A stretch of 64,000 bases of DNA. It comes from Lama glama. Taxonomy: Eukaryota. The notes under the pieces are model-generated. The model was not told the DNA's origin. It did not search any database and worked only from the letters and a program-made list of their open reading frames with translations. Where the stretch lies: contig CM052816.1 in the NCBI GenBank assembly GCA_028534125.1, positions 90,584,001-90,648,000 on the forward strand, given 5' to 3'. Shown one piece after another: positions 590-54,901 of the stretch (the stretch's first letter is position 1; every line of letters starts with the position of its first letter). The position numbers and the translations under genes were made by a program.

Positions 590-595
590 TTTATT
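590..595 (-). terminator. Polyadenylation signal AATAAA (ATTAAA close behind at 582..577)
   Basis: Minus strand reads acagtAATAAAgttaaacaATTAAAatgaag, followed by a U-rich element. Confidence 0.8.
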
Positions 596-1449: not shown

Positions 1450-2121
1450 TTACTCTTTGACTGCTACGGTTTGATCCGAATTAGCTGCCGGCGCCTCGGC
1501 CGGTTTGACCTCGTCTGCGGGGGCCTGGGCCTTGGGCGTGGAACTGGGTGCTTCCGTGGCTGCGGGGGTCTCCTTGGAGGATGGGGCAGCCTCAGTGCTG
1601 CTGGGTTTTGAGTCTGAAGCTGGGGCCCCGTCACTTTTCGTCTCCTGCGCGGCAGGAGCGGCGGGAGCCTCAGTCTTTGTGGGTTCCCCTCCCTCCTTGC
1701 CCTTGTCATCCTTGGCGGGGGCGGCGGGCTCCTCGGCCTCCGAAGCCTTGGGGGCGTCGCCGCCCGCAGCGGGGCCCGAGGCGGCCGCCGGCTCCTGCTC
1801 GGCATCCTTCGGGGGCTCCGGCTTCCCCTCGCCTCCCTCCGTCTGCTCGGGCTCTGCCTTCGGGGCGTCTTCCTTGGCTGCCTCTGTGTCTTTCTCGCCT
1901 TCTTTGTCTTCGGGCTTGGAGGCCGCGTCCTGGGCGTCCTTCTCGGGCTTCTCGTCCTTGCCCTCCTTCACCTCCGGGGTCTCCGCCGCCGCCTGGGTCT
2001 CGTTCTCCTTGGGGGTTCCCTCCTCTTCTGTCCCGGCTCCTTCGGCCTTCTTGTCCTTGTCCTTGGCCTTCTCATCATTCACATTGTACCCCTTCTTCTT
2101 CTTGCTCAGTTTGCCTCCCAT
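1450..2121 (-). CDS. BASP1: Brain abundant membrane attached signal protein 1 (NAP-22/CAP-23), 223 aa, entire CDS in exon 2
   Basis: Translation MGGKLSKKKKGYNVNDEKAKDKDKKAEG...APAANSDQTVAVKE has the characteristic BASP1 N-terminus (Gly2 myristoylation motif, KKKK basic cluster), an acidic Ala/Glu/Pro/Lys-rich body and the conserved C-terminus. Strong Kozak context gagATGg. TAA at 1452..1450. The first 30 aa of the track ORF 1450..2211 are intron/UTR. Confidence 0.98.
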   Translation of the reverse strand: MGGKLSKKKKGYNVNDEKAKDKDKKAEGAGTEEEGTPKENETQAAAETPEVKEGKDEKPEKDAQDAASKPEDKEGEKDTEAAKEDAPKAEPEQTEGGEGKPEPPKDAEQEPAAASGPAAGGDAPKASEAEEPAAPAKDDKGKEGGEPTKTEAPAAPAAQETKSDGAPASDSKPSSTEAAPSSKETPAATEAPSSTPKAQAPADEVKPAEAPAANSDQTVAVKE

Positions 2122-2320
2122 CTCGGAGTTCTGTAACACAACGGGACACAACACACAACGAGAAAAGTTACTTGTGGTCCGGACGGAATGTGCGCGTCCT
2201 CCTAAGCCCATAGGTGTGATGGCAGGAGGAGGTGGGCCTTGGGGAGGTCACCAGGCCAGCAGGTGGAGCCCCGGCTGATGGGCTAAGTGCCCTCCCAGAA
2301 AAGACCGCACCGCTCAGCTC
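1480..2320. promoter_or_regulatory. CpG-rich segment over the coding exon
   Basis: Dense CpG throughout the CDS and the adjacent intron end. Confidence 0.6.
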
Positions 2321-50300: not shown

Positions 50301-52774
50301 CTATATTAAATTTGATCAATATCAAGTTTTTATTAAAAGGGACAAAAGAGATGATTCCCATTTTCCTGCCACGTGTTGTCTTACCAGGATGTACTGAGAA
50401 TACTTAAGCATAAAATTCTTTCAAGCATAACGTGCCATTGCGAAAATATAATATTTAGCTCCTATTTTGTACACAGTTAAGTCTCCTTTCAGTTGATAGA
50501 ACAGACTAGCCCAAAAAGAAATCTTAAGGGCCGTACATGGTCCTTGGATAATACATCATTGGGAAGAAAATCATCCATCAACCACCAAAGGTATGTATGT
50601 ATGTATGTATATATATATATATCATGGTTTCTGGTAGACATTGAAAAAAAATTAAGAACTTAATCAACCATCATCTTCACCCCAGCAGCCCCAGCTGACT
50701 TCTTCCTCCCCATCAGTGGATTTCCAACTCCATGGGGTTCATCTTTGGGATCCCTAATGAAACAATGAGGAAAATCAAGGGAGAACAATCAAGAAATCAA
50801 GAGAAAACAGATATAGTTAGGATCCTGATAAGGTAACCATTTTCTCAGCTCTGGGTTTTGTAGGCCATCTTGTTCACATAAATGCCAAAATGTCTTCATT
50901 TTTCCCAAATGGTGACACTAGGGGCGATACCCACTGTCAGTTTTAAGACGAATATCCCTTAATCAAATGGCCAACAGCAAAAATCTGTCAGAGAAACGGT
51001 TAATTGATGCAAATTAAGAGAGCCACCATCACTGCAGTGCAAAACGATGCAGGAAAAGAACAATGAACAGTATTAGAAAATAGCAGTGTTCGGTTACAAA
51101 AAAATATTTAATCCAGTTTGCCCTCACCATCAAGGCTAATCTTATTTTTCATCAGTTGAAATCACTAAGAAAGCAAACGATTAGATAGGCTGGAAAGGAA
51201 GAAATATACACACAGGAGGGAAAAACTTGTCATTTGTGTCCAAGGGTTTCACGCAACATTTAGGGTAAACGCCTTTGTTCCTGGGCTTGGTAAGGGAGTG
51301 GGTGGGTGGGTGATGCAGAGATCAGATGGGGCTGCCGGGGCCCTCCACACCCTGCTCTCAGGCGCATGCGCGAGGCCAAGACAAAGGAATAGGTAATTAC
51401 AGTCCCGATTCATTCATTTTGCCCGCAGTGCTGAGGATCTCTTAGCCCCGGTAATCCCTGGGAGGTTGATCCACACTGCTATAGCAGGAAGACCACATCG
51501 ATGCTAGTGTCCAATTTTAACCCGCCATCACAGATGTGCTAGTGGCCTCGCGGCAGACCGAGGTGTGGCGTCAATTCTGTTTAAGGTACTAAAAATGCCC
51601 CCGTGAGCGCTGTACTAATTTCAGCGGAGTGAAAATTACACAGGCAAAGACTGTTCGCGGAGTTCGTTTCAAGGCGGAAATGTCTCTGGGGAAGCAGATA
51701 AGGAGCCCAGCCAAGCGTTCGATGAATATTCATGAAAAGAATGCGGTTTGGAGCCACGCATTGTGTGTGCGCTCGGATCCAGGGATTCTGCAATTTTTAT
51801 TCTTGAGGGGGAGGGGACGGTAAGGCGGGGAGGGGCAACAGGGACCCGGCGTCGGGTTTCAGTGTTAGCGCTTCAGGCAAAACCTGCTAAACCCTAAACC
51901 TTCGCTCACAGCGGGTCTGGGCCGTTAGGGGCCGCGCGCTGTCAGGTTCAAGCTCACACCCTCCCCGCCGGGCCGCGCGGGTAGGGGCACCCAGCGCATT
52001 CTGCGAAGGCGAAGACTCGAAAAAATAAATGCTCAGATGTAGCCCACCGGTTAATGGGAAAGCAGTTCAGCCACGTTCGAGGCTGGGGCTCTGATCTGCT
52101 CAAATGTGCTTTGGAGGCACGTTGTCGTGTGAACCTCGCATTCTTTGGCCACCCCAAGCCAAGATTCGGGCGTCCCACAGGTCAAGGAAACCCATTTGCT
52201 AAACCAAAAAGCACCTCCTTCCTTCCGATCACACCAGAGTCCCCGTATTCTTGCTCCCCCTAACTCCCGCCCCACCCCACCCCCACCCTCCATCTTTTGC
52301 TGCTGCGCCCCTCGCACCAAGCGCTTTCTTCCCGGCTGTGAATGGTGCCGATGACAGATAACTCTTCAGCCTCACAAAACCGTCTCTTCGGGTCTCAGTG
52401 GATTAAAGGGTTTCACAGGCGGCAATTTCCTCCTTAACTAGAAGCTTCCCTCCCACTACCCACCCCCTCAACTCCATTTATCAGGCTCACCAACCCTCCA
52501 TCCTCCCCACCCTGCGAGTGGCGGAATCCACCCACCTCCGAGGCCCCCACCACCCCAGATCCCCGTAGCGCGACGGAGCAGTCACTGAGGGGATCCCGTG
52601 TCCGGCGCCGTCTAATTGGGCCCTGCACCGTTTCCCCCTCAGCCCCGGCTGCAGCTAGGGGAGAGAACAAAGGGCCTCGGGAGTGGGGCGGGTGCAGAAG
52701 GGGAACGGAGGCCCCGGGGATGCCGGCACCCCGGGTCCGCCGCGGCAGCGGGGCGACAGGGCGCGCCTCCTTAC

Positions 52775-53000
52775 CGGCTCTGGGTGCCTGTGCCGCCCCT
52801 GGGTGAACGCGGTGCCGCCGAGGGGCCCGGGTCGCTGGTGTCGTCCGGTCGGGTGCCTGGCCGCTGGCAGAAGATCTCTCACCGGCTCGACGGCGGAGCC
52901 CGGAGCGAGGAGCGAGTTGGAGCGCTGCCGCCGCCGCCGTCGCCGCTGCCGCTACTGCCGCCGCCGCCGCCGCTGCAGCCTCTGCATTTCTCGCGCTCGC
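52775..53000 (-). other. BASP1: BASP1 exon 1 (5' UTR); TSS approximate
   Basis: GC-rich segment with CGG repeats, ending in a consensus donor, inside the CpG island. Confidence 0.82.
52926..52974 (-). repeat. Interrupted (CGG)n repeat in the 5' UTR
   Basis: Plus strand gccgccgccgccgtcgccgctgccgctactgccgccgccgccgccgct. Confidence 0.9.
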
Positions 53001-53084
53001 GCTCCCCCTCCCCTTCCTGCCCAGCGCCCTCCCCCGGCGCGTCCGTCCGCCCAGCCTCCCTCCTCTCGCTCACCCCGCCCGCCT

Positions 53085-53115
53085 CCCTCCCCTCCCCTCC
53101 CCTCCCCTCCCCTCC
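53085..53115. repeat. (CCCCT)n pentamer repeat in the proximal promoter
   Basis: ccctcccctcccctcccctcccctcccctcc. Confidence 0.9.
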
Positions 53116-54901
53116 ATCCCGGTGCCCCGCCCGCCTCCCCTCAACTCTCCGCAGTCCTGGTGCCCCGCCCGTCTCCGTTCAATCCCCTCCAGCCCTTCTC
53201 TCTCCTTACGTCTCCTTCCCTCCATCCCGGGTCCCCCCCACCCCCTTCTCCAAAGGGATTGTCCTCTCCTTTCGCTCCCCCCTTCCCTTCATCCCTGTGC
53301 TCCTCCTGCCTCTCTACATCAGCCCTGAATGCCTGTTTCCCACACCCTCCCCACCTCTCCTCCATTCCTCTCCAGTAGCTTGCCCCCAGCCCTCGTCGTC
53401 TCCCCTCCCCCGCCGCGCGGCGGGGCTGTCTACAGGCACTTTCTCTCTCTCTTTCTCCCTCTCTCTCTCCCCCTTTCTCCCTCTCTGGAACGGTTGGAAA
53501 AGACGTGCTCGGGCTCTCGCTCACACTCAGAGGGCTGCCTGGAGGTGATGAATGACGCCCCCCTGCCACCTGCTACCTGTCTCAGCATCCCAGTCCGGCC
53601 GCTCGAGACGTCTGGCTGAGATTCCGATACCCGGGCAGGCAGTGAGGTTGGGGGTGACCAGCTAGCTCCCCTCCACCCGTCAGGACAGATGCCCGCGGGT
53701 TTGAGGGTGGCCTCCAACGGTAGACGCGTCTGGGCGGCGCCCCCGGGGCACCAAGCGCGCTGGGCTGGCGGCTCCCGCACTCGCTGGGCTGAGCCGCGAA
53801 AGCTGCGGCTTTGGGCGAGCGCGGCGCTAAGTTCCAGCTGTCCAGGCGAGCGGCGTTGCCCCTGCGAGGGTGCTCTCGGGACTTGGGAGAGGAGGGAGTG
53901 AAGACAAGAGCCCTGGGAAAGGAACCGTCGGGTTTTGATGGCAGCCAGCTCTCAGGAAGACTGAGTTAGCCGAGGCAACCCGCACAGTGCCGCTCAGAGA
54001 CGCACAGATCAAAACCGTGGCCAACTGCGGTGTGTCAGGGTGTCCCGGGGGCCTGCGACTCTGTTTAATACCGAGATAAGAAATAACCACCCGGGTGGGC
54101 AGATATGCTCACCTTGCTTATCTGTTGGCAAGCCAATGCAAAGATAATAATAACGTAATATGACATCGCTTACAACGGTAACTCTTTCACTAAACAAAAG
54201 CCAATTTTACCTTCCCGCAAAACCCATCTGAACCTTTGGAACTCTCATTTGCGGCATTTGGGCGCCCTCTGGCTGTGTCTGGATTACTTTCATGGTCGCC
54301 TACATCTCAGCAAAGAAAAAAAAAAAAAGATGGAGCTGCTGGTTCTCCAGGATGGTTCTGCCCTCTTGACCTGGGCGTGGATTTGAGAGCAGGAATATTA
54401 TCCAAAATCAGGGTGACAAAATGTAACCATATTTAGAGAGGCAGACTCCAAAGGCAATTGCATCTGCATTCAGCTGGGGAAAGGTAAGTCCATTTTCAAT
54501 TAATAGGAAAAAACTTACCAGAATTTAATTACTATTTTAAATGAATCCGGGTGGTCGTGAAGACCCCATACTACGCTAGAGGTTTTGCAGCGGAACGGGC
54601 TCCTGGACTGCACAGGTGTTGCACCAAATTAGACAAAGGCCTGCGGGCTGGAAATGTTCACATGTTAAAGCCAGGGGCAGAGGGATTTTGCTGTCTTTTT
54701 CATTTCTTCTTTTGTCTTTCTGCCATTGAAATGAAAGAACAAAGAATATGGTATAAGAGAAACATGGCATAAGAACAGGGAAGCAAATTACAACTAGGGT
54801 TGCCTCTAAAGCTTTTTATTTATTTGAACATAAATATTGAATAATTTAATATGGTCAGTATTAATTGACCCTCATTCCAGCACACCCTCTATGAAGCTAG
54901 A

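What the first reader, a model, noticed from the sequence alone, without database searches (positions are those of the whole stretch)
52775..52987. Upstream AUG in exon 1 is in frame with BASP1 and blocked by only one UAG: poly-Arg uORF or readthrough N-terminal extension
Seen: the minus-strand ATG at 52987 (context gagaaATGc, purine at -3) is the only AUG between 52987 and the donor. It opens MQRLQRRRRRQ* (TAG at 52954..52952), encoded by the CGG repeat. The same frame then continues without a stop: RQRRRRRRQRSNSLLAPGSAVEP-VRDLLPAARHPTGRHQRPGPLGGTAFTQGRHRHPEP, across the splice junction to NSE-MGGKLS. Established: BASP1 membrane targeting needs a free Gly2 for N-myristoylation, the protein also acts in the nucleus as a WT1 co-repressor, and stops followed by C are comparatively leaky. 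Inference: the element could be a repressive or stalling Arg-rich uORF. Alternatively, readthrough of CAG-UAG-CGG or near-cognate initiation (GUG 52882, CUG 52870) would give a non-myristoylatable, N-extended BASP1, with +74 aa and an Arg-rich basic N-terminus in the readthrough case. Caveats: GC-rich DNA is stop-poor by chance, and the TSS must lie upstream of 52987.
Basis: partly seen in the sequence, partly recalled or inferred. Interest (0 to 1): 0.72.

Follow-up and report, generated by a model that had tools for sequence, protein, structure and literature searches.

The report
Ordinary BASP1 CGG-repeat gene leader
The first exon of the BASP1 gene holds an extra start codon, an arginine-coding CGG repeat and one stop codon in frame with the protein, but chance alone gives such an open frame in this T-poor DNA and the extra start likely sits where transcription begins, so this is probably an ordinary gene leader.

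Summary
The DNA observation is right: ATG 52987, TAG 52954-52952, then an open frame, 74 codons in all, into the BASP1 ATG. It is not more than chance: 90% of dinucleotide shuffles have no stop in the 59 codons after the TAG, and another frame has none at all. Poly-Arg is simply the CGG array read in this frame. The ATG and the TAG each overlap one of the only two initiator-consensus matches nearby (+1 at 52983 and 52956; count not above chance), and the human CAGE cluster maps across the ATG, so many transcripts likely lack it. UAG-CGG without a 3' structure is a poor readthrough signal. No BASP1 uORF appeared in the human ORF tables searched. The start site in this species and cross-mammal conservation stay untested. 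Verdict: ordinary leader; weak uORF or near-cognate extension possible; readthrough unlikely.

The parts
52985..52987 (-). Upstream ATG (G at -3, C at +4); overlaps the first initiator-consensus match
52952..52987 (-). 11-codon ORF (Arg-rich) ending at the TAG; a uORF only if transcription starts upstream of 52987
52952..52954 (-). The single in-frame TAG, followed by CGG; overlaps the second initiator-consensus match
52923..52973 (-). Degenerate trinucleotide array, 17 units, 79% matches; pure CGG runs of 5 (52972-52958) and 4 (52939-52928) units
   Evidence: human counterpart listed as a BASP1 5'UTR CGG repeat of 5 reference units
52981..52986 (-). BBCA+1BW initiator-consensus match, predicted +1 at 52983
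   Evidence: consensus from PMC5287114 abstract; number of matches not above chance
52954..52959 (-). Second BBCA+1BW match, predicted +1 at 52956
53005..53170 (-). Purine-rich proximal promoter with GC-box-like motifs (53013, 53052, 53080, 53097-53112, 53132, 53170); no TATA match in 52900-53300
   Evidence: motif patterns recalled; function inferred
52868..52882 (-). In-frame near-cognate codons GTG 52882 (C at -3, A at +4; also a donor-like GT) and CTG 52870 (C at -3, C at +4), both in weak context
52775..52951 (-). Rest of BASP1 exon 1 to the splice donor: 59 open codons in the BASP1 frame
   Evidence: junction inferred from GT/AG and gene structure, not from reads
1450..2130 (-). Start of exon 2 (2130) and BASP1 coding sequence (ATG 2121, G at -3 and G at +4; 223 aa)
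   Evidence: homologues named BASP1 with Pfam PF05466
51600..54299 (.). CpG-rich region around exon 1 (52800-53099: GC 0.77, CpG observed/expected 1.01)

Best explanation
This is the CpG-island promoter and CGG-repeat 5' leader of BASP1, whose open frame and poly-Arg are by-products of T-poor repeat DNA, and whose extra ATG likely lies inside the transcription start zone so that most mRNAs would start at or after it and be translated from the strong main AUG. Shown: the sequence anatomy, the chance level of the open frame, the repeat origin of the Arg run, the two initiator-consensus matches, the lack of a known readthrough signal. Inferred: polymerase II starts over a broad zone with preferred sites at or downstream of 52983; scanning ribosomes pass weak near-cognate codons with only low-level initiation and start at 2121 to make myristoylated BASP1; a minority of longer transcripts would carry the 11-codon ORF and terminate at its UAG.
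For: Open frame expected by chance (P 0.90 and 0.96; frame 2 has no stop; P 0.14 for an in-frame ATG with at most one stop). The Arg codons are the CGG array; the other frames read Gly-rich and Ala-rich. The only two BBCA+1BW matches in 52794-53300 have +1 at 52983 and 52956, both downstream of the A of the ATG, with GC-box-like motifs 30, 69 and 97 nt upstream of the first. Human CAGE cluster chr5:17217483-17217787 (hg38, 305 nt; PMC9844987 supplement row), anchored on the BASP1-AS1 ORF start, leaves about 160-250 nt of the cluster downstream of the ATG-equivalent. In human SW480 cells a transcript starting 137 nt downstream of the regular start, still in exon 1, goes with efficient BASP1 protein expression (PMC12974518 section 7); for regular starts placed at 52987-53103 that maps downstream of the ATG. 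No BASP1 uORF in the 6 supplement files of PMC10032668 (7,264 ORFs over 15 aa; 221 of 3-15 aa). No protein with the extension.
Against: The start site of this species was not measured. The two initiator matches are no more than chance gives (2 seen, 3.2 expected in 52794-53300; 0.8 expected in 52900-53050, P 0.19). The human CAGE cluster also extends about 55-145 nt upstream of the ATG-equivalent and its peak positions could not be read, so some transcripts likely include the ATG. The human CGG repeat is annotated as 5'UTR. The ATG has a purine at -3. The 221-ORF list is strict and was discovered in heart, so absence is weak. Human BASP1 is in the relaxed Ribo-seq extension set. Conservation of ATG, TAG and frame across mammals was not tested.
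Confidence: 0.72

Rival explanations
1. Regulatory uORF: transcripts from upstream start sites carry the AUG, ribosomes translate the 11-codon Arg-rich ORF and reinitiate or drop off, so start-site choice tunes BASP1 output.
For: AUG with G at -3 and an in-frame stop 189 nt before the main AUG. The human CAGE cluster likely extends upstream of the ATG-equivalent. Arg-rich 3-15 aa uORF peptides are a described group (PMC10032668 passage).
Against: ATG overlaps an initiator match with +1 downstream of it. Not in the human ORF tables searched. An ATG arises in 41% of shuffles. A far shorter human transcript goes with efficient protein expression.
Confidence: 0.15
2. Functional near-cognate extension: a fraction of ribosomes start at an in-frame GUG, CUG or similar codon downstream of the UAG and make an N-extended BASP1 that cannot be myristoylated and serves the lipid-independent part of its chromatin role.
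For: In-frame GTG 52882, CTG 52870 and AGG codons with no stop to the main AUG. Human BASP1 is listed in RiboSET_ext of PMC9789052. H3K27me3 placement by BASP1 does not need lipidation (PMC9379585 abstract).
Against: RiboSET_ext is the relaxed top-5000 cut (3,451 genes) whose extensions mostly lack coding conservation. BASP1 was not found in 11 other supplement files, which by their numbering include the top-390 and 60-gene conserved lists. Both named codons have C at -3 and no G at +4. The human start codon could not be read, so it may not correspond to these codons. G2A abolishes BASP1's block of v-Myc transformation (PMC7053243 passage). Low-level initiation without function is covered by the best explanation.
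Confidence: 0.1
3. Programmed readthrough: ribosomes start at the uAUG, read through CAG-UAG-CGG and make BASP1 with a 74-residue Arg-rich N-terminus.
For: Frame is open on both sides of the stop. C follows the stop, and CGG after UGA is a viral type II readthrough context (PMC4132726 and PMC13517186 passages).
Against: [quoted passage not shown] Not UGA-CUAG and not UAG-CARYYA. The 122 nt after the stop fold worse than 198 of 200 shuffles (z +2.07). It also needs the AUG to be transcribed and used. No homologous protein.
Confidence: 0.02

Closest known systems
CGG-repeat 5'UTRs of CpG-island genes, including the catalogued human BASP1 repeat (Annear et al. 2021, PMC7844047; passages and one supplement row seen)
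   Same: Same gene, pure run of 5 CGG units, at the 5' end of exon 1; 1,836 of 6,101 human CGG loci are in 5'UTRs.
   Different: Human locus is polymorphic (6-34 units, 3.6% of alleles differ); polymorphism in this species not tested. That catalogue says nothing on the ATG or TAG.
Human non-AUG N-terminal extensions, RiboSET_ext (Fedorova et al. 2022, PMC9789052; abstract, sections 6-7, passages, supplement searches seen)
   Same: Human BASP1 is on the relaxed list; the leader here has in-frame near-cognate codons and an open frame.
   Different: Not found in the files holding the top-ranked or conserved sets; start codon and rank unread (Supplementary Data 2 too large); the addendum's 177-gene list not seen.
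Short AUG uORFs of 3-15 aa (Sandmann et al. 2023, PMC10032668; passages and supplement search seen)
   Same: 11 codons, Arg-rich, upstream of a coding sequence.
   Different: No BASP1 entry; here the AUG may not be in the mRNA.
Programmed stop-codon readthrough (UGA-CUAG genes, Loughran et al. 2014, PMC4132726; viral types I-III, PMC13517186; passages seen)
   Same: Stop followed by C with an open frame beyond; CGG follows the stop as in viral UGA-CGG.
   Different: UAG instead of UGA, no stimulatory structure, no conservation evidence, and the stop would end a uORF rather than a main ORF.

Membership tests
CGG-repeat leader of a CpG-island gene | Four or more CGG units | tested here: met
   Runs of 5 and 4 units inside a 17-unit degenerate array
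CGG-repeat leader of a CpG-island gene | Lies in a CpG island at the 5' end of the gene | tested here: met
   GC 0.77, CpG o/e 1.01 at 52800-53099, upstream of the exon 1 donor
CGG-repeat leader of a CpG-island gene | Repeat is transcribed into the 5'UTR | tested here: inconclusive
   Annotated UTR5 in human; no read evidence for this species
Translated AUG uORF | AUG lies inside the mRNA, downstream of the cap | tested here: inconclusive
   Overlaps an initiator match with +1 at 52983; human CAGE cluster spans it; peaks unread
Translated AUG uORF | In-frame stop before the main AUG | tested here: met
   TAG 52954-52952
Translated AUG uORF | Ribosome footprints or initiation peak | tested here: inconclusive
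   No BASP1 uORF in the human tables searched; strict lists, other species, no raw data
Translated AUG uORF | AUG and stop conserved across mammals | not tested
   No orthologous DNA obtained
Programmed readthrough | Efficient stop context (UGA-CUAG, UAG-CARYYA, UGA-CGG, UAG-G types) | tested here: not met
   UAG-CGGCAG
Programmed readthrough | Stimulatory 3' RNA structure where the context needs one | tested here: not met
   z +2.07; 198 of 200 shuffles fold at least as well; only the first 122 nt were folded
Programmed readthrough | Coding-type conservation of the extension | tested here: inconclusive
   No homologous protein; no DNA alignment available
Non-AUG N-terminal extension | In-frame near-cognate codon with no stop to the main AUG | tested here: met
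   GTG 52882, CTG 52870; expected by chance
Non-AUG N-terminal extension | Favourable initiation context | tested here: not met
   C at -3 in both, A or C at +4
Non-AUG N-terminal extension | In-frame footprints upstream of the main AUG | tested here: inconclusive
   Human BASP1 in the relaxed set only
Non-AUG N-terminal extension | Positive coding conservation over mammals | tested here: inconclusive
   Not found in the files that by numbering hold the 60-gene conserved set; corrected 177-gene list not seen

The most novel reading that the evidence does not exclude
The BASP1 leader is a switch: start-site choice and initiation at an in-frame upstream codon (or, boldest, readthrough of the uORF's UAG) make a regulated N-extended BASP1 that escapes myristoylation, leaves the membrane and PIP2-dependent pool, and carries out only the lipid-independent chromatin function.
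Probability: 0.07. Interest if true: 0.6.

Novelty: already known. Interest (0 to 1): 0.15.

Why it matters
As judged, it matters little: CGG-rich leaders are open in most frames, the human repeat is already catalogued, and low-level upstream translation of BASP1 is already on a list of 3,451 genes. If a regulated extension were real, it would be a natural source of non-myristoylated BASP1, the form so far studied as the G2A mutant, and would explain how cells could separate its lipid-dependent from its lipid-independent repression.

Tried and rejected
Own-genome search: no genome held. Metagenome scan for orthologous exon 1 DNA with a 28-nt pattern: 0 loci. Sequencing-run search: 22 of 24 listed runs hold part of 52700-53300, none half of its words (best 0.42), all kept as contigs; nothing was laid, so these shares are not used as evidence and the start site and cross-species state stay open. 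Protein searches with the extension: 0 of 1,630 candidates; 3 hits among 1.84 billion representatives, all repeat-inflated unrelated proteins without the BASP1 N-terminus. BASP1 homologue searches returned 9 and 10 proteins (14 distinct), too few mammals for a comparison; predicted extensions in axolotl (P0002, 86 aa) and catfish (P0010, 49 aa) do not align with this one (the other extended models P0008, P0011-P0013 were read by eye only). CAGE peak positions: PMC5358891 supplements gave no coordinates; the decomposed-promoter file of PMC9844987 gave no BASP1 row because it is cut in storage. One recalled paper id was wrong. Literature searches for a BASP1 uORF, extension or readthrough: (6 papers; 3; 0; 1), seen as listings only, none on this by title or abstract start; others (20 of 103 listed; 40 of 2,039 listed) showed no paper containing BASP1. 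Rejected as a test: 'indels in multiples of 3' inside the CGG array, since slippage keeps frame by itself. Rejected as proof: the initiator matches, whose number is at chance level.

Full report
What is there. The window holds the whole BASP1 gene on the minus strand: a CpG-rich first exon near 52.8-53.0 kb and a second exon from 2130 with the 223-codon coding sequence from ATG 2121 (homologues named BASP1, PF05466). Earlier AI notes on this genome call it a camelid (not checked, not needed). The splice junction is inferred from the GT and AG ends, not from reads.

Is it more than chance? No. The exon piece is 76.5% GC and 8.5% T, and has two stop trinucleotides in all three frames together. 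In 5000 dinucleotide shuffles the 59 codons after the TAG are stop-free 90% of the time, and 71 codons hold at most one stop 96% of the time; frame 2 has no stop at all. An in-frame ATG with at most one stop turns up in 14% of 3000 shuffles of 52794-53020. The Arg run is a 17-unit degenerate trinucleotide array (52923-52973) read as CGG; the other frames read it as Gly and Ala. The human counterpart is catalogued as a polymorphic BASP1 5'UTR repeat with 5 reference units (PMC7844047, one supplement row and passages). Because such arrays slip in threes, frame-keeping indels there would not show coding selection.

Is the ATG in the mRNA? This is the hinge, and it was not measured. Indirect evidence points to the ATG lying in the start zone. 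The only two matches to the human initiator consensus BBCA+1BW (PMC5287114, abstract) in 52794-53300 have +1 at 52983 and 52956; the first overlaps the ATG and would leave it out of the RNA, the second overlaps the TAG; GC-box-like motifs (patterns recalled) lie 30, 69 and 97 nt upstream of the first and there is no TATA match. Against over-reading this: 3.2 matches are expected by chance in that stretch. In human lymphoblastoid cells the BASP1 CAGE cluster is broad, chr5:17217483-17217787 (PMC9844987, supplement rows and section 15). I anchored it with the human BASP1-AS1 ORF start (hg38 17216978), whose orthologous DNA starts at window 53548. For net indels of 0-90 nt, 56-146 nt of the cluster lie upstream of the ATG-equivalent and 158-248 nt downstream. 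So starts likely fall on both sides; the peaks could not be read. In SW480 cells a CRISPRa-induced transcript starting 137 nt downstream of the regular start was mapped by 5' RACE in lines that express BASP1 protein efficiently (PMC12974518, section 7 and passages; supplement unreadable), which suggests the upstream part of the leader is dispensable for making the protein.

uORF. Possible in longer transcripts: the AUG has G at -3 and a stop 189 nt before the main AUG. A search of the 6 supplement files of PMC10032668, which cover 7,264 Ribo-seq ORFs over 15 aa and 221 of 3-15 aa, found a BASP1-AS1 ORF and BASP1 as an interactor, but no BASP1 uORF (one file cut in storage, 2 of its 3 hits shown). 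The short list is strict and heart-derived, so this is weak.

Readthrough. Unlikely. Efficient mammalian cases have UGA-CUAG; UAG works with CARYYA (PMC4132726, passages). Here the stop is UAG and the next 122 nt fold worse than 198 of 200 shuffles. No database protein carries the extension, which is weak evidence given the poor recovery of mammalian BASP1 itself.

Near-cognate extension. This has the one independent hint: human BASP1 appears in a RiboSET_ext sheet of PMC9789052, the relaxed top-5000 Ribo-seq cut of 3,451 genes, whose extensions mostly show no coding conservation (sections 6-7 and passages). It was not found in 11 other supplement files, which by their numbering include the 390-gene and 60-gene lists. 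The table with its start codon was too large to read and the addendum's 177-gene list (PMC10764858, whole text seen) was not seen; both may bear on this. In this species GTG 52882 and CTG 52870 have C at -3 and no G at +4, against G/G at the main AUG. On function, BASP1's co-repressor activity needs myristoylation except for H3K27me3 placement (PMC9379585, abstract), and G2A abolishes its block of v-Myc transformation (PMC7053243, passage), so an extended form would be a partial-function species, not the nuclear co-repressor as such.

Verdict. An ordinary CpG-island, CGG-repeat leader of BASP1 (0.72). A regulatory uORF in longer transcripts (0.15) and a functional near-cognate extension (0.10) are not excluded; readthrough is improbable (0.02). 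I found no paper on a BASP1 uORF or readthrough in searches (listings only). The start site in this species and conservation across mammals are the two untested points and would settle the matter. Interest 0.15.

Noticed in passing
window 53548-53900, + strand: DNA orthologous to the human BASP1-AS1 ORF c5norep17 (114 aa, labelled young and de novo in PMC10032668): the ATG is present but the ORF ends after 23 codons, and matching peptide stretches continue in another frame with stops. Fits a primate-specific origin of that ORF.
   Followed up: partly
window 52883/52882, - strand: A second donor-like site (GTGAGA after CCG) inside exon 1; its use would shorten the exon by 108 nt and keep the frame. 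Use not tested.
   Followed up: partly
window 53085-53115 and 53442-53486: Purine-rich repeats in the promoter: 6.2 copies of a 5-mer G-run unit and about 22 GA/TC dinucleotide units; G-quadruplex or triplex potential not tested.
   Followed up: no
window 2122-2211, - strand: An intronic ATG at 2211 is also in frame with BASP1 without a stop (253-aa ORF); database models P0008 and P0012 have what look like similar intron-derived extensions. Shows how easily in-frame extensions arise at this gene.
   Followed up: no
window 590-595, - strand: [quoted passage not shown]
   Followed up: no
P0002, P0010: Annotated BASP1 models of axolotl and a catfish carry predicted N-terminal extensions of 86 and 49 aa, unrelated in sequence to this one.
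   Followed up: partly
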